Of a DNA stretch of 27,542 bases, positions 1,774 to 21,643 are shown one piece after another. Both the position numbers and the translations under genes were made by a program. Where the stretch lies: the UHGV virus genome UHGV-0088497; one strand, 5' to 3'. The stretch is from a virus. Numbering within the stretch: the stretch's first letter is position 1; the number at the start of each line of letters is the position of its first letter. The notes under the pieces were generated by a model. The model made no database searches, was not told the DNA's origin, and saw nothing but the letters and a program-made list of their open reading frames with translations.

Positions 1774-2259
1774 GTGGCTAGTGAAAAAAAATTAAAAATT
1801 CCATTCGATACCAACAAAAACTATTACAGTGGAATTCGTGGTGTTTTGAGCGGTATTGTTTGCTCTATGATCGGTGTTTATATTACCGGGCTATTTAGCG
1901 GAGCTATTAGTGTTGCTCAGATTTTTGAAATGCCAATAGTTATCATCAGTGCTTGGGTCGCTTTGTGTGCTTCTTTGTGGGCGATATCATATAAATTTGA
2001 AGATAGGGTTATATGCACATTTGGTCGTAATTGGGATTGTCCTAGAACAGCGAACTTTTTTTTATTTTTGCTTTACATAATGATAGGTGTCTTTTGTTCA
2101 CTTATATTCGAGGCCTTTCTGAAGGGGGGGGCCTCCCGCTCCTTATATGTTTCAATGGCGGGCTTTTTAGTTTTCTTACGACTTTTTTGTTTCTTCAGCA
2201 TTAAGAACTATGCTCAAATACAAAGCAAATCTGTTGATGAAACTAACCATGAAAAGTAA
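1774..2259 (+). CDS. AT-rich polytopic membrane protein (about 4 predicted TM helices), accessory gene beside the immunity region
   Basis: 161-aa ORF with GTG start at 1774 preceded by AAGG (1763-1766); four hydrophobic stretches; sequence visibly more AT-rich than flanking phage genes; contains a G8 tract (2124-2131) and a T8 tract (2056-2063). Confidence 0.6.
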   Translation: MASEKKLKIPFDTNKNYYSGIRGVLSGIVCSMIGVYITGLFSGAISVAQIFEMPIVIISAWVALCASLWAISYKFEDRVICTFGRNWDCPRTANFFLFLLYIMIGVFCSLIFEAFLKGGASRSLYVSMAGFLVFLRLFCFFSIKNYAQIQSKSVDETNHEK

Positions 2260-14912: not shown

Positions 14913-15116
14913 ATGAAATTTCTCTGGGTTGTATGCATTATTTGCGGAGTTATTGGGTTTGTGCAGGGAATTATCGGGGTGTTCGGTGCTGTTAGTGCGC
15001 CTCAGCAGGCTGCTGGTGCAGCAATGGGCGTTGCATGGGCGGTAATCCCATATTGCATCTGTCGTGCTATCCAGCAGATGAGACCACAAGAAGTGGTAAT
15101 CAAAAAAGACGAATGA
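14913..15116 (+). CDS. small membrane protein (67 aa, two hydrophobic helices)
   Basis: AAAGGAG 6-7 nt upstream of ATG 14913; hydrophobic sequence; followed by an intrinsic terminator. The ORF-track start at 14892 is less likely. Confidence 0.5.
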   Translation: MKFLWVVCIICGVIGFVQGIIGVFGAVSAPQQAAGAAMGVAWAVIPYCICRAIQQMRPQEVVIKKDE

Positions 15117-15138
15117 TACTCAGCTATCACATCGAATA

Positions 15139-15162
15139 AGCCTCGCAAAAGCGGGGCTTTTT
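15139..15162 (+). terminator. Rho-independent terminator (AGCCTCGC-AAAA-GCGGGGCT followed by TTTT)
   Basis: 8-bp stem (one G-U pair) with a short T-run, directly after the small membrane protein gene. Confidence 0.55.
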
Positions 15163-15217
15163 AATGCCCGCCACCTATCATCGCAAGTGATAATCATTAT
15201 TAATAAATGGGTCCTCC

Positions 15218-15254
15218 TGGCAGGTTGGCCTGCCACGGGGCGGCGTGCTCGCGG
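15218..15254. other. cos site: cosN-like GGGCGGCGTGCTCGCGG (putative 12-nt cohesive end GGGCGGCGTGCT at 15238-15249) preceded by palindrome TGGCAGG-TTGG-CCTGCCA
   Basis: 10/12 match to the lambda cohesive end GGGCGGCGACCT as I recall it, followed by CGCGG as in lambda; ~110 bp upstream of the Nu1-like gene. Confidence 0.55.
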
Positions 15255-15354
15255 AAAACGGCTAGTTTTTCAGATCTAAGGTCATCATCATCATTTGCGC
15301 AGGTTATTGATCTCATTGGAGGCGATTTCGTGCAGATGTCGAATCGTTTAAAAA

Positions 15355-15855
15355 GTGTTCACCATCATGGACCAGGAAATTGCCACTTTAAAACTGAATA
15401 TCAACCAGTTGGCGGGGATCACTGGCGTACACCGTCAGACGGTCGCCGCCAGGCTGAAAAATATTGAACCGGCACCAGGTAGCAACAGCAAATTAAAGCT
15501 TTACCTGATCACCGACATTCTGACCGAACTGATGATCCCCACTGTGTCAGCCAATATCGATGACATGCTGCCATCGGACAGGCTTTCCCACTGGAAAGCG
15601 GAGAATGAGCGACTCAAGTTTGAGCAGGATACGGGGCAGCTCATTCCCGCTGATGAAGTGGCGCGCGAATTCTCATTGATGGCGAAAGCCGTCGTCATGG
15701 TACTTGAAACCCTCCCTGATGTACTTGAGCGTGACTGTGCATTAACGCCTGTTGCGGTTTCTCGCGTGCAGAGCGTTATTGATGACCTGCGCGATCAGAT
15801 GGCGGAGAGGGTGCAGGACGCTGAAGCAGAGGAGGAAGAGCCAGAGGAGGACTGA
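15355..15855 (+). CDS. terminase small subunit (lambda Nu1-like)
   Basis: N-terminal HTH region (LKLNINQLAGITGVHRQTVAARL) resembles lambda Nu1 (NKKQLADIFGASIRTIQNW); acidic C-terminus; stop overlaps the large-subunit start. Start may be GTG 15355 or ATG 15367. Confidence 0.75.
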   Translation: MFTIMDQEIATLKLNINQLAGITGVHRQTVAARLKNIEPAPGSNSKLKLYLITDILTELMIPTVSANIDDMLPSDRLSHWKAENERLKFEQDTGQLIPADEVAREFSLMAKAVVMVLETLPDVLERDCALTPVAVSRVQSVIDDLRDQMAERVQDAEAEEEEPEED

Positions 15856-17957
15856 TGGCAAAGCGGGCATCCGCCAGAGGCATCCGCCGCGATGTTTCCG
15901 GTATCTTACGTGCCCCGCGTCGAATGCAGGTGGCCGATGCGGTCAGTACTTATATGCGCGTGCCGATGGGGGCGGGTAACTCCGTTCCATGGGATCCGGA
16001 TCTGGCACCTTACGTGATTGAACCGATGAACTGCCTGGCATCGCGTGAATATGACGCGGTAGTGTTTGTTGGTCCGGCGCGAACGGGTAAAACCATTGGT
16101 CTGATTGATGGCTGGATTGTTTACAACGTTGTCTGTGATCCGGCTGATATGCTCCTGATTCAGATGACTGAGGAAAAGGCGCGCGAGCACTCCAAAAAGC
16201 GTCTTGATCGTACATTCCGTTGCAGCCCTGAAGTGAAATCCCGACTGAGCCCGCGGCGTAATGATAACAACGTATATGACCGCACGTTTCGCGCCGGGAA
16301 CTACCTGAAAATCGGCTGGCCATCGGTCAATATCATGTCCTCATCGGACTATAAATGCGTGGCACTGACCGACTATGACCGTTTCCCGGAAGACATTGAC
16401 GGGGAAGGTGACGCCTTTTCACTGGCATCAAAGCGAACAACAACGTTCATGTCGTCAGGAATGACACTGGTTGAGAGTTCGCCGGGCCGCGACATACGTG
16501 ACACAAAATGGCGCCGTAGCTCACCGCATGAAGCACCTCCTTCAACGGGGATTCTGGCGCTGTACAACCGTGGTGATCGCCGTCGCCTTTACTGGCCGTG
16601 CCCACATTGCGGTGAATATTTCCAGCCTGAAATGGACAATATGACAGGTTACCGCGATATCGCGGACCCTGTTCAGGCCAGCGAGAAAGCCTGTCTTCAA
16701 TGCCCTGCCTGTAAAGAGCACATCACTGCGGATATGAAGCGTTCGCTCAATATGAAAGGGAAGTGGCTGCGGGATGGGCAAACCATCGACAACGATGGTG
16801 TTATCACTGGGGAAGGGCGACGCTCGCGCATTGCCTCCTTCTGGATGGAAGGCCCTGCCGCCGCGTACCAGACCTGGGCGCAGCTCATCTATAAATTTCT
16901 TACCGCTGAGCAGGACTATCAGGCCACTGGCAGCGAGGAGGCACTGAAGACGGTAATCAACACCGACTTTGGGCGTCCGTATCTTCCTCGCTCCAGCATG
17001 GAACAGCGCAAAAGTGAACTGCTTGAGCAGCGTGCGGAGGTTGTACCAAAGCGCTCTGTTCCGGACGGGGTTTGTTTCCTTATGGCGACCGTCGATGTTC
17101 AGGCGGGGCGCAACCGGCGTTTTGTTGTTCAGGTTACTGGCTACGGCAGCATGGGAGAGCGCTGGCTGGTGGACCGCTACAATATCAGGCAGTCGATGCG
17201 CTATGACGCCAATGGCGAGAGCCAGCAGATTGACCCGGCAAGCTATCCGGAAGACTGGGATTTATTGCTGACCGATGTGTTTAACAAAGCCTGGCCAATG
17301 GCATCGGATCCGACTAGGTGTATGCGGCTGATGGCGATGGCCGTTGACTCCGGCGGTGAGGATGGTGTGACCGACAACGCTTATAAATTCTGGCGTAAGT
17401 GTCGTCGTGAAGGACTCGGAAAACAGATTTACCTGTTCAAAGGCGACAGTGTCCGCCGATCCAAACTTATCTCCCGAACCTTTCCTGATAATACCGGACG
17501 TTCAAGCCGACGGGCACAGGCTTCTGGTGATGTCCCGCTTTACTTGATCCAGACCGATGCTCTGAAAGACCGGGTGAACAACGCTTTGTGGCGTGATTCA
17601 CCAGGCCCTGGCTATGTGCATTTCCCTGACTGGCTCGGTAGCTGGTTTTACGATGAACTGACCTATGAGGAGCGATCGACTGATGGCAAATGGAGTAAGC
17701 CGGGACGTGGTGCAAACGAAGCATTTGACCTGCTGGTCTACGCTGATGCGCTCGCCATCCTCCACGGCTACGAGAAAATCAAATGGCCCGCTGCTCCTGA
17801 GTGGGCGAGGCGGGAAACCTGGCTGGAGAACGCGCCGCCGGAAGCTGGCGAAGCGGCATCCCAGACACCAGAACCAGTACCCACCAAAAAACGGAAGCGG
17901 AAAAAGCCCGTAACCGATGATTCTAACCCCTGGAGTACATCAGGAGGATGGTTGTGA
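15855..17957 (+). CDS. terminase large subunit (lambda gpA-like)
   Basis: 700 aa with Walker A motif (VGPARTGKT), size and position typical of gpA-type terminases; ATGA overlap with the small subunit. Confidence 0.9.
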   Translation: MAKRASARGIRRDVSGILRAPRRMQVADAVSTYMRVPMGAGNSVPWDPDLAPYVIEPMNCLASREYDAVVFVGPARTGKTIGLIDGWIVYNVVCDPADMLLIQMTEEKAREHSKKRLDRTFRCSPEVKSRLSPRRNDNNVYDRTFRAGNYLKIGWPSVNIMSSSDYKCVALTDYDRFPEDIDGEGDAFSLASKRTTTFMSSGMTLVESSPGRDIRDTKWRRSSPHEAPPSTGILALYNRGDRRRLYWPCPHCGEYFQPEMDNMTGYRDIADPVQASEKACLQCPACKEHITADMKRSLNMKGKWLRDGQTIDNDGVITGEGRRSRIASFWMEGPAAAYQTWAQLIYKFLTAEQDYQATGSEEALKTVINTDFGRPYLPRSSMEQRKSELLEQRAEVVPKRSVPDGVCFLMATVDVQAGRNRRFVVQVTGYGSMGERWLVDRYNIRQSMRYDANGESQQIDPASYPEDWDLLLTDVFNKAWPMASDPTRCMRLMAMAVDSGGEDGVTDNAYKFWRKCRREGLGKQIYLFKGDSVRRSKLISRTFPDNTGRSSRRAQASGDVPLYLIQTDALKDRVNNALWRDSPGPGYVHFPDWLGSWFYDELTYEERSTDGKWSKPGRGANEAFDLLVYADALAILHGYEKIKWPAAPEWARRETWLENAPPEAGEAASQTPEPVPTKKRKRKKPVTDDSNPWSTSGGWL

Positions 17958-18169
17958 ACCGTGTTGATATTGAAGCCATGATCCAGCGATATACCGAAGC
18001 CGAAATGGCGGTGCTGGATGGCAAAACTATCCGTTTCAATGGGCAGGAAATGACGATGGAGAACCTGTCTGAAATCCGAAAAGGGCGTCAGGAGTGGGAG
18101 CGTCGGCTCTCTTCTCTTATTTCTCATCGCCGCGGGCGACCCGGTTACCGACTGGCGAGGTTTGAATGA
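17948..18169 (+). CDS. head-tail joining protein (lambda gpW-like)
   Basis: 73-aa ORF between terminase and portal; C-terminal RRGRPGYRLARFE resembles the gpW C-terminus. Confidence 0.7.
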   Translation: MVVNRVDIEAMIQRYTEAEMAVLDGKTIRFNGQEMTMENLSEIRKGRQEWERRLSSLISHRRGRPGYRLARFE

Positions 18170-19674
18170 GCCTTTTAGATGATGCGATTGGGGTCTTTTC
18201 GCCTGGCTGGAAAGCAGCCCGTCTGCAGGCGCGCGCGAAAATCAGGGCATATGAAGCCGTTACCCCGACCAGAACGCACAAAGGGCGCCGTGAAAATCGT
18301 TCAGCTGATCAGCTCAGCAAAATGGGGGCGGTATCACTGCGGGAGCAGGCCCGGTGGCTCGATAACAATCACGATCTGGTGATTGGGGTGTTCGATAAGC
18401 TGGAAGAGCGGGTGGTTGGGAAAGCCGGAATTATTGTTGAACCCCATCCCAAACTGATGAACGGTAAAATCGCCAAAAAGCTTGCAGATCAGATCCGTAA
18501 TAAATGGGCAGAATGGTCTGTCAGGCCTGATGTCACGAACCAGTTTACCCGCCCGATGCTTGAGCGCCTGATGTTGCGCACCTGGCTGAGGGATGGCGAA
18601 GTGTTTGCCCAGCTTGTCAGTGGAACCGGGAATGGTCTTACGCCAGCAGCCGGTATCCCCTTCTGGCTTGAAGCGCTTGAACCAGATTTTATTCCCATGA
18701 ACAGCGATGCTGCCAGCCAGCTTAATCAGGGGGTATTCGTCGACAACTGGGGCAGACCAAGGAAATATCAGGTTTATAAAAGCCTGCCCGTTTCAGGCCG
18801 TCAGCTTGATACCAAAGAAGTGGATGCGGAAAACATGCTGCATCTTAAATTTGTCCGCCGTCTGCACCAGACCCGGGGAGTATCGATGCTGTCCGGTGTA
18901 CTGATGCGTCTGAGTGCACTCAAAGAGTATGAAGATGCTGAGCTCACCGCCGCACGTATTGCTGCTGCGCTGGGTATGTACATCAAAAAGGGGGACGGGC
19001 AAAGCTTAGAGGAGGGTAACAGTTCTTCCGATGATGATGATCGGGAATTGATGATTCAGCCTGGCATCATTTATGACGATCTGAAACCTGGTGAAGATAT
19101 CGGCATGGTGAAATCTGACCGGCCCAATCCTAACCTTGAAACCTTCCGAAATGGGCAACTTCGCGCTGTTGCAGCAGGTAGCCGACTCAGCTTTTCAAGC
19201 ACAGCCAGAAACTACAACGGCACCTACAGCGCGCAGCGGCAGGAACTGGTGGAATCAACAGATGGCTATCTCATTTTACAGGACTGGTTTATTGGCGCGG
19301 TGACCCGGCCAATGTACCGCGCCTGGCTGAAAATGGCGGTGGCCGCTGGCGAGATTAAATTACCCCGCGGTCTGGATATGGAGTCGCTGTACTCGGCGGT
19401 GTATTCCGGCCCTGTTATGCCGTGGATCGATCCGGTTAAAGAGGCCAATGCCTGGAAGTTACAGATCCGGGGCGGAGCGGCAACGGAATCCGACTGGGTC
19501 CGCGCCAGCGGACGTAACCCGAACGATGTGAAGGCGCGCCGGAAGGCAGAGATCGACGAAAACAAAGAGATGGGGCTGGTGTTTGACACTGACCCTGCCA
19601 ATGACAAAGGAGGCACAAGTGCCGAAGCCAAAGAACCGGGCGCACCACCGTCCGAAAGCCAGCGCAAAAAGTAA
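18166..19674 (+). CDS. portal protein (lambda gpB-like)
   Basis: 502-aa ORF right after gpW with ATGA overlap; size and position typical of lambda-type portals. Confidence 0.85.
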   Translation: MSLLDDAIGVFSPGWKAARLQARAKIRAYEAVTPTRTHKGRRENRSADQLSKMGAVSLREQARWLDNNHDLVIGVFDKLEERVVGKAGIIVEPHPKLMNGKIAKKLADQIRNKWAEWSVRPDVTNQFTRPMLERLMLRTWLRDGEVFAQLVSGTGNGLTPAAGIPFWLEALEPDFIPMNSDAASQLNQGVFVDNWGRPRKYQVYKSLPVSGRQLDTKEVDAENMLHLKFVRRLHQTRGVSMLSGVLMRLSALKEYEDAELTAARIAAALGMYIKKGDGQSLEEGNSSSDDDDRELMIQPGIIYDDLKPGEDIGMVKSDRPNPNLETFRNGQLRAVAAGSRLSFSSTARNYNGTYSAQRQELVESTDGYLILQDWFIGAVTRPMYRAWLKMAVAAGEIKLPRGLDMESLYSAVYSGPVMPWIDPVKEANAWKLQIRGGAATESDWVRASGRNPNDVKARRKAEIDENKEMGLVFDTDPANDKGGTSAEAKEPGAPPSESQRKK

Positions 19675-21643
19675 TTCCTGGTTCCGTATGCAGGCCAGCG
19701 CCGACAACGAAGCGGATATTTATATCTACGACGAGATCGGCTACTGGGGGGTGACGGCGCGCCAGTTTGTAAATGACCTGAAGGCGCTGGGCGATATTAC
19801 CCATATCAACCTTCATATCAATTCGCCCGGTGGCGATGTCTTTGATGGCATCGCCATTTTTAATGCCCTGAAGCATCACGGCGCGGCAATCACCGTTCAC
19901 ATTGATGGTCTGGCAGCTTCAATGGCTTCGGTGATTGCGATGGTTGGCAACCCGGTAATTATGCCGGAAAACACGATGATGATGATCCACAAACCATGGG
20001 GATTCGCAGGTGGCGATGCCAACGACATGCGGGATTATGCCGATCTGCTGGATAAGGTCGAGTCTGTCCTGATCCCGGCGTACGCGGAGAAAACAGGAAA
20101 AACGACCGATGAAATCGCCGCCATGCTGGACGATGAAACCTGGATGGATGGTAAAGAATGCTTAGCGCATGGCTTTGCCGATCAGGTCACTACATCTCTG
20201 CAGGCGATGGCCTGTATTCAATCAAAACGTATTGAGGACTTTGAAAAGATGCCAAACAGCATTCGTAACATGATCACCCCGCCGCGCAATACTACCCAGC
20301 GCGAACCGCAGCAACCGCAACCACAGGTGGCGGCAACGACGACCCCAGCGCCAGCGTCCACTTCTGATGAAGCCACTATCCGTGCACAGGTGCTTGCCGA
20401 GCAAAAGAACCGTGTTAACGCAATTAACGATCTCTTTGCGATGTTCGGTGGCAAGCATCATGAGCTGCAGAATAAATGCATCGCGGATCCGGAATGCACA
20501 GTGGCTCAGGCTAAAGATGAATTGCTGGCGGCGCTGGGCAAAAATGCCACACCGTCGAATAAAACTACGGATGCGCACATTTACGCCGGGAACGGTAACT
20601 TTGTTGGCGACGGAGTTCGTCAGGCACTGATGGCGCGCGCTGGCTTCGAGAGCCTGGAGCGGGACAACGTCTATAACGGCATGACGCTGCGCGAATATGC
20701 CCGTATGGCACTGACCGAACGCGGCATCGGCGTTTCCAGCTATAACCCGATGCAAATGGTCGGTATGGCACTGACGCACAGCACGTCTGACTTCGGTAAT
20801 ATCCTGCTCGACGTTGCTAATAAAGCGTTACTGCAGGGCTGGGAGGAAGCGGCAGAAACTTTTGAGCAGTGGACCAAGAAAGGCCAGTTGTCTGACTTTA
20901 AAACGGCGCATCGTGTCGGTCTGGGCGGCTTCTCATCCCTGCGTCAGGTACGCGAAGGTGCTGAATATAAGTATGTGACCACCAAAGATAAAGGTGAAAG
21001 CATCGCGCTGGCCACCTACGGTGAAATCTTCTCTATTACCCGTCAGGCGATCATCAATGACGATCTGAATCAGTTAACCGATGTACCTATGAAGATGGGC
21101 CGTGCAGCAAAAGGGACGATTGGCGACCTGGTGTATGCCATTCTGACCGAAAACGCGAAATTGTCTGATGGTAAGCCGCTGTTCCATGCTGATCACGGTA
21201 ATATTTCCGCAGGCGCGATTTCTGTAGCCAGCCTTGATGAAGCGCGCAAGATGATGCGTCTGCAGAAAGAGGGTGAGCGTCCCCTGAATATTCGCCCGGC
21301 ATTCATGCTGGTGCCAGTCGCGCTCGAAACCCTGGCAAACCAGACGATCAAGTCTGCCAGTGTGAAAGGGGCGGATATCAACGCCGGTATCATGAACCCA
21401 ATTCAGAACTTTGCTGATGTTATCGCGGAGCCGCGTCTTGACGCCAAAGACACCAGCGCCTGGTATCTGGCCGCCGCTAAGGGCACGGACACCATCGAAG
21501 TGGCATACCTGAACGGCGTTGATACTCCGTATATCGATCAGCAAGAAGGCTTCACTACCGACGGTATTGCCACCAAAGTGCGCATCGATGCCGGTGTATC
21601 ACCTCTGGATTATCGCGGCATGGCGAAATCAACCGGGAAATAA
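19619..21643 (+). CDS. prohead protease (S49/ClpP-like) - scaffold - major capsid protein fusion (Gifsy-type)
   Basis: N-terminal ClpP/S49-like domain (IYIYDEIGYWG, INSPGGDVFDG), Pro/Gln-rich linker, C-terminal ~350 aa capsid-like. GTG 19619 has a strong SD (AAGGAGG 19607-19613); alternatives are TTG 19583 and ATG 19688. Confidence 0.8.
   Translation: MPKPKNRAHHRPKASAKSNSWFRMQASADNEADIYIYDEIGYWGVTARQFVNDLKALGDITHINLHINSPGGDVFDGIAIFNALKHHGAAITVHIDGLAASMASVIAMVGNPVIMPENTMMMIHKPWGFAGGDANDMRDYADLLDKVESVLIPAYAEKTGKTTDEIAAMLDDETWMDGKECLAHGFADQVTTSLQAMACIQSKRIEDFEKMPNSIRNMITPPRNTTQREPQQPQPQVAATTTPAPASTSDEATIRAQVLAEQKNRVNAINDLFAMFGGKHHELQNKCIADPECTVAQAKDELLAALGKNATPSNKTTDAHIYAGNGNFVGDGVRQALMARAGFESLERDNVYNGMTLREYARMALTERGIGVSSYNPMQMVGMALTHSTSDFGNILLDVANKALLQGWEEAAETFEQWTKKGQLSDFKTAHRVGLGGFSSLRQVREGAEYKYVTTKDKGESIALATYGEIFSITRQAIINDDLNQLTDVPMKMGRAAKGTIGDLVYAILTENAKLSDGKPLFHADHGNISAGAISVASLDEARKMMRLQKEGERPLNIRPAFMLVPVALETLANQTIKSASVKGADINAGIMNPIQNFADVIAEPRLDAKDTSAWYLAAAKGTDTIEVAYLNGVDTPYIDQQEGFTTDGIATKVRIDAGVSPLDYRGMAKSTGK

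What the first reader, a model, noticed from the sequence alone, without database searches (positions are those of the whole stretch)
15218..15254. Lambda-like cosN with adjacent 7-bp-arm palindrome
GGGCGGCGTGCT-CGCGG closely matches the lambda cohesive end GGGCGGCGACCT-CGCGG as I recall it, and lies ~110 bp upstream of the Nu1-like gene. This predicts 12-nt 5' cohesive ends and fixes the virion genome termini. The immediately upstream palindrome TGGCAGG-TTGG-CCTGCCA (15218-15235) is a candidate terminase or cosQ-like recognition element.
Basis: partly seen in the sequence, partly recalled or inferred. Interest (0 to 1): 0.4.

Follow-up and report, generated by a model that had tools for sequence, protein, structure and literature searches.

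The report
Lambda-type cos site of a prophage
This is the ordinary DNA-packaging cut site (cos) of a lambda-like prophage, probably in Citrobacter; the cut site is real, but the neighbouring palindrome is a chance feature and the true termination signal (cosQ) lies just upstream of it.

Summary
GGGCGGCGTGCT-CGCGG lies at 15238-15254, 10/12 identical to the lambda cohesive end. A perfect 7-bp-arm palindrome lies at 15218-15235.

The cosN reading is well supported. The mismatches fall at positions 9-10, in the half that Feiss's group reports as naturally variable. The CG pairs at both nick positions are kept. An exact GGGTCCT heptamer, which I take to be lambda cosQ, lies 22 nt upstream at 15209-15215 (23 nt in lambda). 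An A/T-tract I2-like segment and an R3-IHF-R2(inverted)-R1 type cosB follow. Next come a small terminase gene (Pfam DUF1441, not Nu1) and a gpA-family large terminase.

Relatives share this layout: mEp043/mEp213, LLS, cdtI, Gifsy-2, Hafnia yong2 and about 200 prophages. Two metagenomic viral contigs and the cdtI and LLS records start exactly at the predicted nick.

The palindrome reading is not supported. None of 64 independently sampled spacers, and only the window's own among another 49, has 7/7 pairing. Pairing equals shuffle expectation. The nearest relative (99% identical downstream) differs at 3 spacer bases. Only its last bases (CCACG) are conserved, as the left flank of cosN.

Verdict: a new member of a known kind, of low interest. 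Side note: a Fur-binding-type palindrome lies 7 bp upstream of cosQ, as in lambda.

The parts
15189..15201 (.). Fur-box-like palindrome GATAATCATTATT. It differs at one base from lambda's GATAATCATTATC and lies 7 bp before cosQ, as in lambda. It is an optional accessory element whose role at cos is unknown.
   Evidence: The lambda-identical copy upstream of nohA in the K-12 Qin prophage lies about where Chen et al. 2007 place a gel-shift-confirmed Fur site (PMC2189734); the match is by position only. It is present in 50 of 95 unique cos loci, against a 0.6% null.
15209..15215 (+). cosQ heptamer GGGTCCT, the packaging-termination signal. It is identical to lambda bp 48473-48479.
   Evidence: It is invariant in relatives or replaced by AGGTACT. 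In a sample chosen without reference to it, 100 of 101 unique loci carry one of the two forms 21-23 nt upstream of the nick. The equation of this heptamer with cosQ rests on my recollection of Wieczorek & Feiss 2001, which is not held. PMC4669245 confirms only that cosQ is 7 bp long and highly conserved.
15216..15232 (.). Variable part of the cosQ-cosN spacer. A mosaic boundary with the nearest relative falls here.
   Evidence: Per-column variation and absence of covariation. Three differences from Citrobacter murliniae L113 at 15222, 15225 and 15226, with identity to the right.
15233..15237 (+). CCACG, the invariant left flank of cosN. The top-strand nick N1 is predicted between 15237 and 15238.
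   Evidence: CCACG is present in 49 of 49 and 100 of 101 unique loci. It forms a dyad with the right flank, whose bottom strand reads CCGCG. The CG at the nick is conserved according to PMC4669245.
15238..15249 (+). Predicted 12-nt 5' cohesive end GGGCGGCGTGCT. The bottom-strand nick N2 is predicted between 15249 and 15250.
   Evidence: Bases 1-7 are conserved and 8-12 variable, with 26 right-half variants. The same 12-mer occurs in Providencia phage PSTCR8lys and in C. murliniae. Records or contigs start at the homologous base in LLS, cdtI, L053 and L165.
15250..15254 (+). CGCGG, the invariant right flank of cosN.
   Evidence: The Hafnia phage yong2 record starts at this base and ends with the 12-mer.
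15255..15279 (+). I2-like segment with an A-tract and a T-tract: AAAACGGCTAGTTTTTCAGATCTAA.
   Evidence: It is nearly invariant in relatives. In lambda, I2 is an AT-rich segment with poly-dA and poly-dT tracts at bp 18-50, between cosN and cosB, and is needed for efficient termination (PMC4856287; PMC4669245). The assignment rests on position and composition only.
15280..15294 (+). R3-like putative small-terminase binding site GGTCATCATCATCAT.
   Evidence: It forms a direct repeat with 15352-15368. A phage-specific sequence occupies the same position, about +43 from the nick, in all relatives compared.
15300..15312 (-). Weak IHF-like site GATCAATAACCTG, with 2 mismatches to WATCAANNNNTTR. It lies between the R3-like and R2-like elements.
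   Evidence: A TTGAT core is visible at this position in the relatives' sequences. This is inference only.
15335..15343 (-). R2-like element GATGTCGAA, inverted relative to R1-like (7 of 9 complementary to TTCACCATC).
   Evidence: In the relatives with a clear inverted pair (Gifsy-2, PSTCR8lys, VT1-Sakai, Kp4865-4) it lies at about +96/+121, and its sequence differs from phage to phage.
15355..15368 (+). R1-like element GTGTTCACCATCAT. It overlaps the small terminase start codon.
15367..15855 (+). Small terminase (TerS), Pfam DUF1441, with an N-terminal helix-turn-helix.
   Evidence: Pfam DUF1441 at 2.5e-41. PHROG 141 'terminase small subunit' at 1e-66. No BLASTP match to lambda Nu1. A weak colinear hhalign match that includes the HTH, probability 20%.
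15855..17957 (+). Large terminase (TerL) of the gpA family, the enzyme expected to nick cosN.
   Evidence: Pfam GpA_ATPase at 1e-75 and GpA_nuclease at 1e-83. It is 25% identical to lambda gpA, E = 1e-18.

Best explanation
Window 15189-15368 is the cohesive-end site (cos) of a lambdoid prophage with Gifsy-2/mEp213-type head genes, most likely in Citrobacter. It is built and used like lambda cos.

Initiation: the small terminase (DUF1441 family, 15367-15855) binds the R3-like, R2-like and R1-like repeats of cosB (15280-15368), probably helped by an IHF bend. This positions the gpA-type large terminase (15855-17957) to make two nicks 12 nt apart, between 15237/15238 on the top strand and between 15249/15250 on the bottom strand. 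The nicks create 5' overhangs of sequence GGGCGGCGTGCT. DNA is then packaged rightward, towards the head genes.

Termination: when the next cos on the concatemer arrives, the heptamer GGGTCCT (cosQ, 15209-15215), together with cosN and the I2-like segment, triggers the terminating cut.

The palindrome TGGCAGG-TTGG-CCTGCCA has no function of its own. Its last bases belong to the conserved CCACG left flank of cosN. The rest lies in a freely varying spacer that happens to be self-complementary in this one sequence.

Shown here: the sequence features, their conservation pattern, the gene families, and records and contigs that begin at the nick. Inferred: the nick positions, the protein-DNA contacts, and whether this particular prophage is active.
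For: 1. Match to lambda cosN. The 17-mer matches with 2 mismatches, one hit against 0.05 expected. In an alignment running from the upstream palindrome through CGCGG, 48 positions are identical across the 67-nt lambda and 66-nt window stretches; this includes an exact GGGTCCT at lambda's 48473-48479 position.

2. Conservation matches the published pattern. [quoted passage not shown] Here, across 49 and 64 unique spacers from two samples, GGGTCCT or AGGTACT is present in 100 of 101 loci, CCACG in 100 of 101, GGGCGGC is conserved in the first sample (required by the search pattern in the second), and there are 26 right-half variants.

3. Gene context. A gpA-type TerL, a lambda-family portal and a ClpP-capsid fusion lie downstream. 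A holin, a lysozyme and a DUF2514 protein (read here as the Rz-type spanin) lie upstream. TerS matches PHROG 141.

4. Ends in other records. The LLS and cdtI records start at the homologous +1 base. The Hafnia yong2 record starts at +13 and ends at +12. Two metagenome-derived viral contigs start exactly at +1 (L053, L165).

5. cosB. Three repeat elements lie at about +43, +96 (inverted) and +120 in most of the DUF1441-TerS phages compared, and their sequences differ from phage to phage. This is the R3-I1-R2-R1 layout described for lambda, 21, phi80 and Gifsy-1 (PMC9026076).

6. The palindrome is incidental. Only 1 of 49 unique spacers (the window's own) and 0 of 64 show 7/7 pairing. Watson-Crick cells number 213 against a shuffle mean of 214.6 +/- 3.1, and 253 against 254.8 +/- 4.3. 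The nearest relative, Citrobacter murliniae L113, has 3 mismatches in the first ~3 kb right of the nick (99.3% over the 5-kb BLAST match) but has CCTGGCGGGGCGGCCTGCCACG in the spacer. Palindromes of this size are as frequent as chance predicts.
Against: No physical end data exist for this prophage. Even for the closest cultured relatives the cohesive end is stated as inferred: the LLS paper (PMC12315714) says 'we infer', citing a 'putative' mEp213 cos. The prophage may be defective; the window shows only part of it. TerS is not a detectable Nu1 homologue, so the cosB mechanism is argued by analogy. The IHF-like site is weak, with 2 mismatches. That GGGTCCT is the cosQ heptamer rests on my memory of Wieczorek & Feiss 2001, which I could not retrieve. 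Record starts at +1 may reflect the depositors' own inference rather than measurement; the two metagenomic contig starts are less open to this objection.
Confidence: 0.87

Rival explanations
1. The palindrome 15218-15235 is a functional recognition element. It could be a dyad-symmetric binding site for a terminase dimer, a cruciform, or a cosQ-like termination signal acting together with cosN.
For: It lies between cosQ and cosN. A longer imperfect inverted repeat (12 nt, 83% complementary) spans 15213-15240. LLS and mEp043 keep 6-bp arms GGCAGG/CCTGCC with different loops.
Against: There is no covariation, and pairing equals shuffle expectation in two independent samples. Most relatives break the two central pairs; Eeyore, Flotzy and Kp4865-4 are examples. 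Hafnia yong2 and lambda have unrelated spacers. The closest relative differs at 3 spacer bases. Neither the fold nor the frequency of such palindromes is significant. The conserved element at the cosQ position lies upstream, at 15209-15215.
Confidence: 0.04
2. The sequence is a genuine cos by descent, but this prophage is cryptic or defective. The site would then no longer be cut in this host, or would be used only when a helper phage supplies terminase.
For: Many enterobacterial prophages with intact-looking cos sites are defective. Qin in K-12 keeps a lambda-identical cos upstream of nohA. Only 27.5 kb of the element is visible.
Against: All packaging and head genes examined in the window are full-length with strong family matches. 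Every conserved cos subsite is intact. Close relatives are plaque-forming phages: mEp043, mEp213, LLS, Eeyore and Flotzy.
Confidence: 0.12
3. The match to lambda cosN is a chance G+C-rich motif, and the phage packages by a headful (pac) mechanism or has ends elsewhere.
For: None beyond the shortness of the motif.
Against: Chance expectation is 0.05. The match extends to cosQ and the flanks. The block is strictly conserved across about 200 loci from many genera. TerL belongs to the gpA (5'-cos) family. Contigs start at the nick.
Confidence: 0.01

Closest known systems
Bacteriophage lambda cos (cosQ-cosN-I2-cosB)
   Same: The 12-nt cohesive end is 10/12 identical, with bases 1-8 identical. The CG pairs at both nick positions are kept. 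The GGGTCCT heptamer upstream is exact. The upstream Fur-box-like palindrome lies at the same 7-bp distance. An A/T-tract segment follows cosN. Three repeats are laid out as R3 - IHF-like - inverted R2 - R1, ahead of the terminase genes. TerL belongs to the gpA family.
   Different: Cohesive-end positions 9-10 differ (TG in place of AC). The cosQ-cosN spacer is 22 nt rather than 23 and is unrelated in sequence. The left flank is CCACG, not TTACG. cosB is shorter: the TerS ATG lies at +130, against +191 in lambda. The repeat sequences differ. TerS is DUF1441 and is not detectably related to Nu1. TerL is only 25% identical.
Putative cos of mEp213 / mEp043 / LLS (E. coli lambdoid phages with Gifsy-2-like heads)
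   Same: The architecture is the same and the region aligns at about 87-88% DNA identity from cosQ onward. TerS is 96% identical. The cohesive end GGGCGGCGCGCT differs from the window's at one base. The TerS start lies at +130 in both.
   Different: Position 9 of the cohesive end is T in the window and C in these phages. The spacer bases differ. The host is probably Citrobacter rather than E. coli. LLS lacks the Fur-box-like palindrome.
Gifsy-1 / Gifsy-2 cos (Salmonella)
   Same: The TerS family (DUF1441, 48% identity), the gpA-type TerL and the ClpP-capsid fusion are shared. Feiss's group lists Gifsy-1 among lambda-like cos phages with a tripartite cosB. The R2/R1 inverted pair lies at the same distances from the nick.
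   Different: Gifsy-2 has AGGTACT in place of GGGTCCT and a divergent stretch between the flanks (CCACGGGTGGCTTCGGGCTCGCGG). Its repeat sequences differ (TTCGACACTG type).
cos sites of enterobacterial phage-inducible chromosomal islands (PICIs, e.g. EcCICFT073)
   Same: They carry lambda-like cosQ and cosN with lambda-like spacing.
   Different: PICIs lack phage cosB repeats and are followed by rpp genes. Here cos is followed by a full terminase, portal, capsid and tail module, so this is a prophage and not an island.

Membership tests
[quoted passage not shown] | A 12-nt sequence with significant identity to GGGCGGCGACCT, with a conserved left half (bp 1-6) | tested here: met
   GGGCGGCGTGCT is 10/12 identical, with differences at bp 9 and 10 only. 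The left half is invariant in relatives.
[quoted passage not shown] | Conserved 5'-CG-3' pairs flanking both nick positions | tested here: met
   CG at 15236-15237 and CG at 15250-15251. The rule is stated in PMC4669245.
[quoted passage not shown] | A 7-bp cosQ upstream of cosN at lambda-like spacing | tested here: met
   GGGTCCT at 15209-15215, 22 nt before the nick, against 23 nt in lambda. It is conserved in 100 of 101 loci sampled without reference to it.
[quoted passage not shown] | cosB with TerS-binding repeats (R3, inverted R2, R1) and an IHF site between cosN and the terminase genes | tested here: inconclusive
   Repeats are found at constant positions with phage-specific sequences. 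The IHF match is weak. Binding was not tested.
[quoted passage not shown] | A large terminase of the gpA family encoded immediately downstream | tested here: met
   GpA_ATPase at 1e-75 and GpA_nuclease at 1e-83. BLASTP against lambda gpA gives E = 1e-18.
[quoted passage not shown] | Virion DNA physically carries 12-nt 5' single-stranded complementary ends at this site | not testable with these tools
   Only indirect evidence is available. Two metagenomic contigs start at +1. The cdtI and LLS records start at +1, and the yong2 record breaks at +12/+13. The LLS ends are stated as inferred.
Nu1 family small terminase (Pfam Phage_Nu1) | Sequence membership in the Nu1 family | tested here: not met
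   Pfam gives DUF1441 and not Phage_Nu1. BLASTP against Nu1 finds no alignment. hhalign gives only 20% probability. The protein is a small terminase by position, by PHROG 141 and by GenBank annotation of relatives.
cosQ (as proposed for the palindrome 15218-15235) | Sequence conserved among phages that share the cosN and TerL type | tested here: not met
   The left arm and loop are variable. Only the window's own spacer among 49, and 0 of 64, show full pairing, and there is no covariation. The conserved heptamer lies outside the palindrome.

The most novel reading that the evidence does not exclude
It is a Fur-box-type palindrome (GATAATCATTATT, 15189-15201) placed 7 bp upstream of cosQ, exactly as in lambda (GATAATCATTATC, 48453-48465). 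About half of the lambda-type cos sites I sampled carry it, although their small terminases are unrelated to Nu1 and their flanking sequences differ. The lambda-identical copy upstream of nohA in the K-12 Qin prophage lies about where a site was reported to bind Fur in a gel shift and was picked up by an in vivo Fur titration; I matched the two by position only. The novel reading is that Fur occupancy at the right chromosome end links late read-through transcription into the head genes, or cosQ-dependent termination of packaging, to the host's iron status. My evidence neither supports nor excludes a function. It shows only enrichment and positional conservation.
Probability: 0.2. Interest if true: 0.5.

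Novelty: new member of a known kind. Interest (0 to 1): 0.12.

Why it matters
Practically, the result fixes the likely virion genome ends (left end at 15238) and the packaging direction for this prophage, which helps annotation and end-aware assembly. [quoted passage not shown] It also shows that a lambda-type cosQ/cosN pair works alongside a small terminase family (DUF1441) that has no detectable sequence relation to Nu1. This fits the view that the large terminase reads cosQ and cosN. None of this is surprising to a specialist.

Tried and rejected
1. I tested the palindrome as a structural or recognition element. I checked its frequency against simulations, its DNA fold against shuffles, and its pairing and covariation in two samples of relatives. 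All were negative.

2. I first took the LLS GenBank feature '5'extended single-strand cohesive site' as experimental proof of the ends. Reading the paper showed it is an inference, so I downgraded it.

3. I tried to retrieve Wieczorek & Feiss 2001 (the cosQ definition), Vahanian et al. 2017 (natural history of cosN), Cue & Feiss 1993 and Casjens 2008. None is held. A text search for GGGTCCT together with cosQ returned only irrelevant papers.

4. An Rfam scan of the whole window found no family.

5. PDB sequence searches with TerS and with its family profile found nothing useful.

6. The consensus terminator scan did not flag the hairpin at 15140-15162, although ViennaRNA folds the surrounding 41-nt stretch (15130-15170) at -16 kcal/mol, with the stem followed by a U-run.

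7. I did not run structure prediction of TerS or the large protein-database searches. The fold of TerS would not change the verdict on the cos site.

Full report
**1. The observation**

The sequence reads ...GATAATCATTATT AATAAAT GGGTCCT CC TGGCAGG TTGG CCTGCCA CG | GGGCGGCGTGCT | CGCGG AAAACGGCTAGTTTTT.... The palindrome occupies 15218-15235. The 12-mer occupies 15238-15249 and CGCGG occupies 15250-15254. A search with lambda's GGGCGGCGACCTCGCGG, allowing up to 3 mismatches, gives this single site (2 mismatches) against 0.05 expected by chance.

The palindrome is real but unremarkable. The window holds 28 perfect 7-bp-arm palindromes with loops of 0-10 nt, against 20 +/- 5 in simulated sequence. 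As single-stranded DNA the region folds no better than 15 of 200 shuffles (z = -1.49).

**2. Comparison with lambda itself**

I fetched both ends of NC_001416. Lambda reads ...GATAATCATTATC ACTTTAC GGGTCCT TTCCGGTGATCCGACAGGTTACG | GGGCGGCGACCT | CGCGGGTTTTCGC...

In a global alignment of the 67-nt lambda stretch with the 66-nt window stretch, 48 positions are identical. The shared features are:
- a 13-bp palindrome upstream;
- an exact GGGTCCT heptamer at the position of lambda bp 48473-48479;
- the CG before the nick;
- bases 1-8 of the overhang;
- the CGCGG after it.

From memory, GGGTCCT at 48473-48479 is cosQ as defined by Wieczorek & Feiss (Genetics 2001). I could not retrieve that paper. 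The held Feiss papers say only that cosQ is a highly conserved 7-bp site upstream of cosN that is required for termination.

The two mismatches in the overhang are at positions 9 and 10. Feiss and colleagues report that natural variation among lambda-like phages concentrates in bp 7-12. They also report that cosQ, the left half and the CG pairs at the nicks are maintained (PMC4669245). The window fits this rule exactly.

**3. Gene context**

The genes examined upstream encode a DNA methylase, a holin, a lysozyme and a DUF2514 protein, which I read as the Rz-type spanin. A 67-aa hydrophobic ORF of unknown function follows (PHROG 12304), and after it a terminator-like hairpin at 15140-15162.

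Downstream the order is as follows:
- a 162-aa protein (15367-15855), Pfam DUF1441 and PHROG 141 'terminase small subunit';
- a 700-aa large terminase with GpA_ATPase and GpA_nuclease domains;
- a small ORF;
- a lambda-family portal;
- a ClpP-capsid fusion;
- gpZ-like, tail tube and tape-measure genes.

The large terminase is 25% identical to lambda gpA (E = 1e-18). The small terminase has no BLASTP similarity to Nu1. A family profile aligns with Nu1 only weakly, though colinearly and through the N-terminal helix-turn-helix (hhalign probability 20%). 'Nu1-like' is therefore true of position and probable role, but not of family.

**4. Relatives**

Megablast against phage records finds mEp043, mEp213, LLS, Eeyore, Flotzy (87-88% identity) and Klebsiella phage Kp4865-4. 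E. coli genomes reach at most 88%. The best genomic match is Citrobacter murliniae 24249, at 99.3% over 15139-20111, so the window probably comes from Citrobacter.

I collected further samples:
- 80 IMG/VR loci found through the small terminase protein;
- more distant phages with DUF1441 small terminases: PhiR55_1, 569R4, CP-1639, VT1-Sakai, Gifsy-2, HannyBb/cdtI, Providencia PSTCR8lys and Hafnia yong2;
- 19 genomes from Kluyvera, Phytobacter, Trabulsiella, Kosakonia, Enterobacter, Klebsiella, Ewingella and others;
- 120 IMG/VR loci selected only on GGGCGGC-N5-CGCGGNAANCGGCT, without any requirement on what lies upstream.

**5. Conservation pattern**

In the protein-selected sample, the columns conserved at 95% or more are CCACG, GGGCGG, CGCGG and most of AAACGGCTAGTTTTT. 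The heptamer is GGGTCCT in most sequences and AGGTACT in the rest.

In the sample chosen without reference to the upstream side, 100 of 101 unique sequences have GGGTCCT (65) or AGGTACT (35) 21-23 nt before the nick. CCACG precedes the nick in 100 of 101. There are 26 different right halves of the overhang. The window's own 12-mer GGGCGGCGTGCT recurs in several IMG/VR loci, in C. murliniae and in Providencia phage PSTCR8lys.

This is the signature expected of a functional lambda-type cosQ-cosN pair.

**6. Evidence on the physical ends**

The LLS record begins at the homologous base and annotates a 5' cohesive site GGGCGGCGCGCT. The paper, however, states that this is inferred from the putative mEp213 cos (Vahanian et al. 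2017; M. Feiss, personal communication). It also notes that the nanopore assemblies lacked the sequence around cos.

The cdtI record also begins at +1, with GGGCGGGAGCGT, and ends ...GGGTCCTTCCGGTGGGGTGGCCTGCCACG. The Hafnia yong2 record begins at CGCGG (+13) and ends with its 12-mer, as expected if it was opened at the bottom-strand nick.

Two metagenome-derived viral contigs start exactly at +1: L053 and L165. These are harder to attribute to a depositor's inference. A contig starting at that precise base by accident is very unlikely.

I know of no direct end mapping for this prophage or its closest relatives, so the termini remain a strong prediction.

**7. The palindrome**

The pairs implied by the window's palindrome are 15218-15235 through 15224-15229.
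- Among 49 unique 22-nt spacers from the first sample, only the window's own has 7 of 7 Watson-Crick pairs.
- The two central pairs are Watson-Crick in only 19 and 17 of 49.
- The total of paired cells is 213 of 343, against 214.6 +/- 3.1 after shuffling partners.
- In the independent sample no spacer of 64 has 7 of 7, and the total is 253 against 254.8 +/- 4.3.

There is thus no covariation. The residual pairing comes from the G-rich left and C-rich right composition.

Lambda and yong2 have unrelated spacers. The C. murliniae prophage has only 3 mismatches in the first ~3 kb right of the nick (after which an indel ends the ungapped comparison), yet has CCTGGCGGGGCGGCCTGCCACG in the spacer. 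It differs from the window at 15222, 15225 and 15226, and diverges progressively further left. A mosaic boundary therefore runs through the palindrome. Its right arm belongs to the conserved cosN flank and head-gene module. Its left arm belongs to the variable right-end module.

The only conserved part of the palindrome is CCA of CCACG. That pentamer is the dyad partner of the right flank, whose bottom strand reads CCGCG. I read it as part of the left half-site for nicking.

**8. cosB**

The repeat finder reports a direct repeat, AAGGTCATCATCATCAT (15278-15294) with AAAGTGTTCACCATCAT (15352-15368). An inverted, 7-of-9 copy, GATGTCGAA, lies at 15335-15343.

Across most of the DUF1441-terminase phages compared, repeat elements lie at about +43, +96 (inverted) and +120 from the nick, while their sequences change together within each phage:
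- Gifsy-2: GTCAGCACTGAA / CAGTGTCGAA / TTCGACACTG;
- PSTCR8lys: CTGTCAGCAG / GAGGTGACAG / CTGTCACCTC;
- 569R4: GTCATCACCA / TTCATCACCA.

A weak IHF consensus match (2 mismatches) lies between the first and second elements. This is the R3-I1-R2-R1 layout that Feiss describes for lambda, 21, phi80 and Gifsy-1. The segment 15255-15279, with its A-tract and T-tract, corresponds by position and composition to I2. These assignments are inferences from position and comparison. No binding was tested.

**9. Mechanism and rivals**

The best explanation is a lambda-type cos, used as described in the Best explanation section. Small terminase on cosB positions the gpA-type large terminase to nick between 15237/15238 and between 15249/15250. 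Packaging proceeds rightward. cosQ, cosN and I2 at the next cos terminate it. I put this at about 0.85-0.9.

The main caveat is that the prophage could be defective, which would make the site a relic (about 0.1). A functional palindrome (about 0.04) and a chance match (about 0.01) are poorly supported.

**10. Novelty**

Lambda-like cos sites in phages with Gifsy-type heads are already described: Gifsy-1 in the Feiss papers, a putative mEp213 cos, and LLS. This is a new member of a known kind, with a right-half variant of the overhang that is itself common in databases. Interest is low.

Its suggestion about the palindrome is not supported, and it missed the real cosQ heptamer two bases upstream.

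**11. Side observations**

(a) Fur-box-like palindrome. The 13-bp palindrome lies 7 bp upstream of cosQ: GATAATCATTATT in the window at 15189-15201, and GATAATCATTATC in lambda. The K-12 Qin prophage has a lambda-identical cos upstream of nohA, with this palindrome about 230-240 bp before the nohA start by my count. That is about where Chen et al. 2007 report a 22.3-bit Fur site (-233), confirmed by gel shift and earlier recovered by in vivo Fur titration; I matched the two by position, not by comparing the published site sequence. They also predict a 25.3-bit Fur site upstream of nohB. Among 95 unique cos loci, 50 have a copy with 2 or fewer mismatches, 49 of them 3-9 bp before cosQ, against 0.6% for random 60-mers. 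It is absent from LLS and many others, so it is not essential. Its role at cos is unknown.

(b) The AGGTACT form of the heptamer, seen in Gifsy-2, accounts for about a third of sampled loci. The 2015 Feiss paper says natural variation in cosQ is 'not apparent'.

(c) Flotzy, CP-1639 and VT1-Sakai have 9, 10 and 11 nt between the conserved flanks. This could reflect sequencing errors in a G+C-rich run, decayed sites, or shorter overhangs.

Noticed in passing
window 15189-15201 (lambda NC_001416 48453-48465; K-12 Qin, L119 about 2095-2107, minus strand): A Fur-box-like 13-bp palindrome (GATAATCATTATT; GATAATCATTATC in lambda) lies 7 bp upstream of cosQ in both the window and lambda. The lambda-identical copy upstream of nohA in Qin lies about where a gel-shift-confirmed Fur site was published (PMC2189734); I matched them by position only. 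Among 95 unique lambda-type cos loci, 50 carry a copy with 2 or fewer mismatches, 49 of them 3-9 bp before cosQ, against a 0.6% null. It is optional (absent in LLS), and its role at cos is unknown.
   Followed up: partly
L093 (Gifsy-2), L095 (PSTCR8lys), L009/L011/L012 and other IMG/VR loci; position homologous to window 15209-15215: An alternative heptamer, AGGTACT, replaces GGGTCCT at the cosQ position in about 35% of independently sampled loci (35 of 101). Some of these loci have a small terminase 100% identical to the window's. The 2015 Feiss paper states that natural cosQ variation is not apparent.
   Followed up: partly
window 15216-15232 compared with L113 (Citrobacter murliniae CP163158): A mosaic boundary falls inside the cosQ-cosN spacer. 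To the right of about 15229 the two prophages are nearly identical, with 3 mismatches in about 3 kb. To the left they diverge within a few bases and become unrelated beyond about 15139. The junction between the right-end module and the head-gene module therefore lies at cos itself.
   Followed up: partly
L007 (Flotzy PP925827), L091 (CP-1639), L092 (VT1-Sakai); position homologous to window 15238-15249: Flotzy, CP-1639 and VT1-Sakai have 9, 10 and 11 nt, rather than 12, between the conserved ACG and CGCGG flanks (GGGCGGCGC, GGGCGGGCGG, GGGCGGGCGGG). This could be assembly error in a G+C-rich run, a decayed site, or a shorter overhang.
   Followed up: no
window 14913-15116 and 15140-15162: A 67-aa hydrophobic ORF (PHROG 12304, unknown function, no Pfam match) lies between the lysis genes and cos. 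It is followed by a terminator-like hairpin, GCCTCGC-AAAA-GCGGGGC-TTTTT; the 41-nt stretch around it (15130-15170) folds at -16 kcal/mol. The consensus terminator scan did not flag it. It looks like a small cargo gene in the position where lambdoid phages often carry morons.
   Followed up: no
window 15367-15855: The small terminase is annotated by PGAP merely as 'DUF1441 family protein' in E. coli genomes, and as 'hypothetical protein' in several phage records. Its position, PHROG 141 and the matching cosB repeats all indicate that it is the small terminase of lambda-type cos phages. It shows no BLASTP similarity to Nu1, and only a weak colinear profile match that includes the helix-turn-helix.
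   Followed up: partly
L104 (DAINBV010000046.1, labelled Geobacteraceae MAG): A metagenome-assembled genome labelled Geobacteraceae carries this enterobacterial-type cos and 80% identical head genes. This is probably a binning contaminant rather than a real host range.
   Followed up: no
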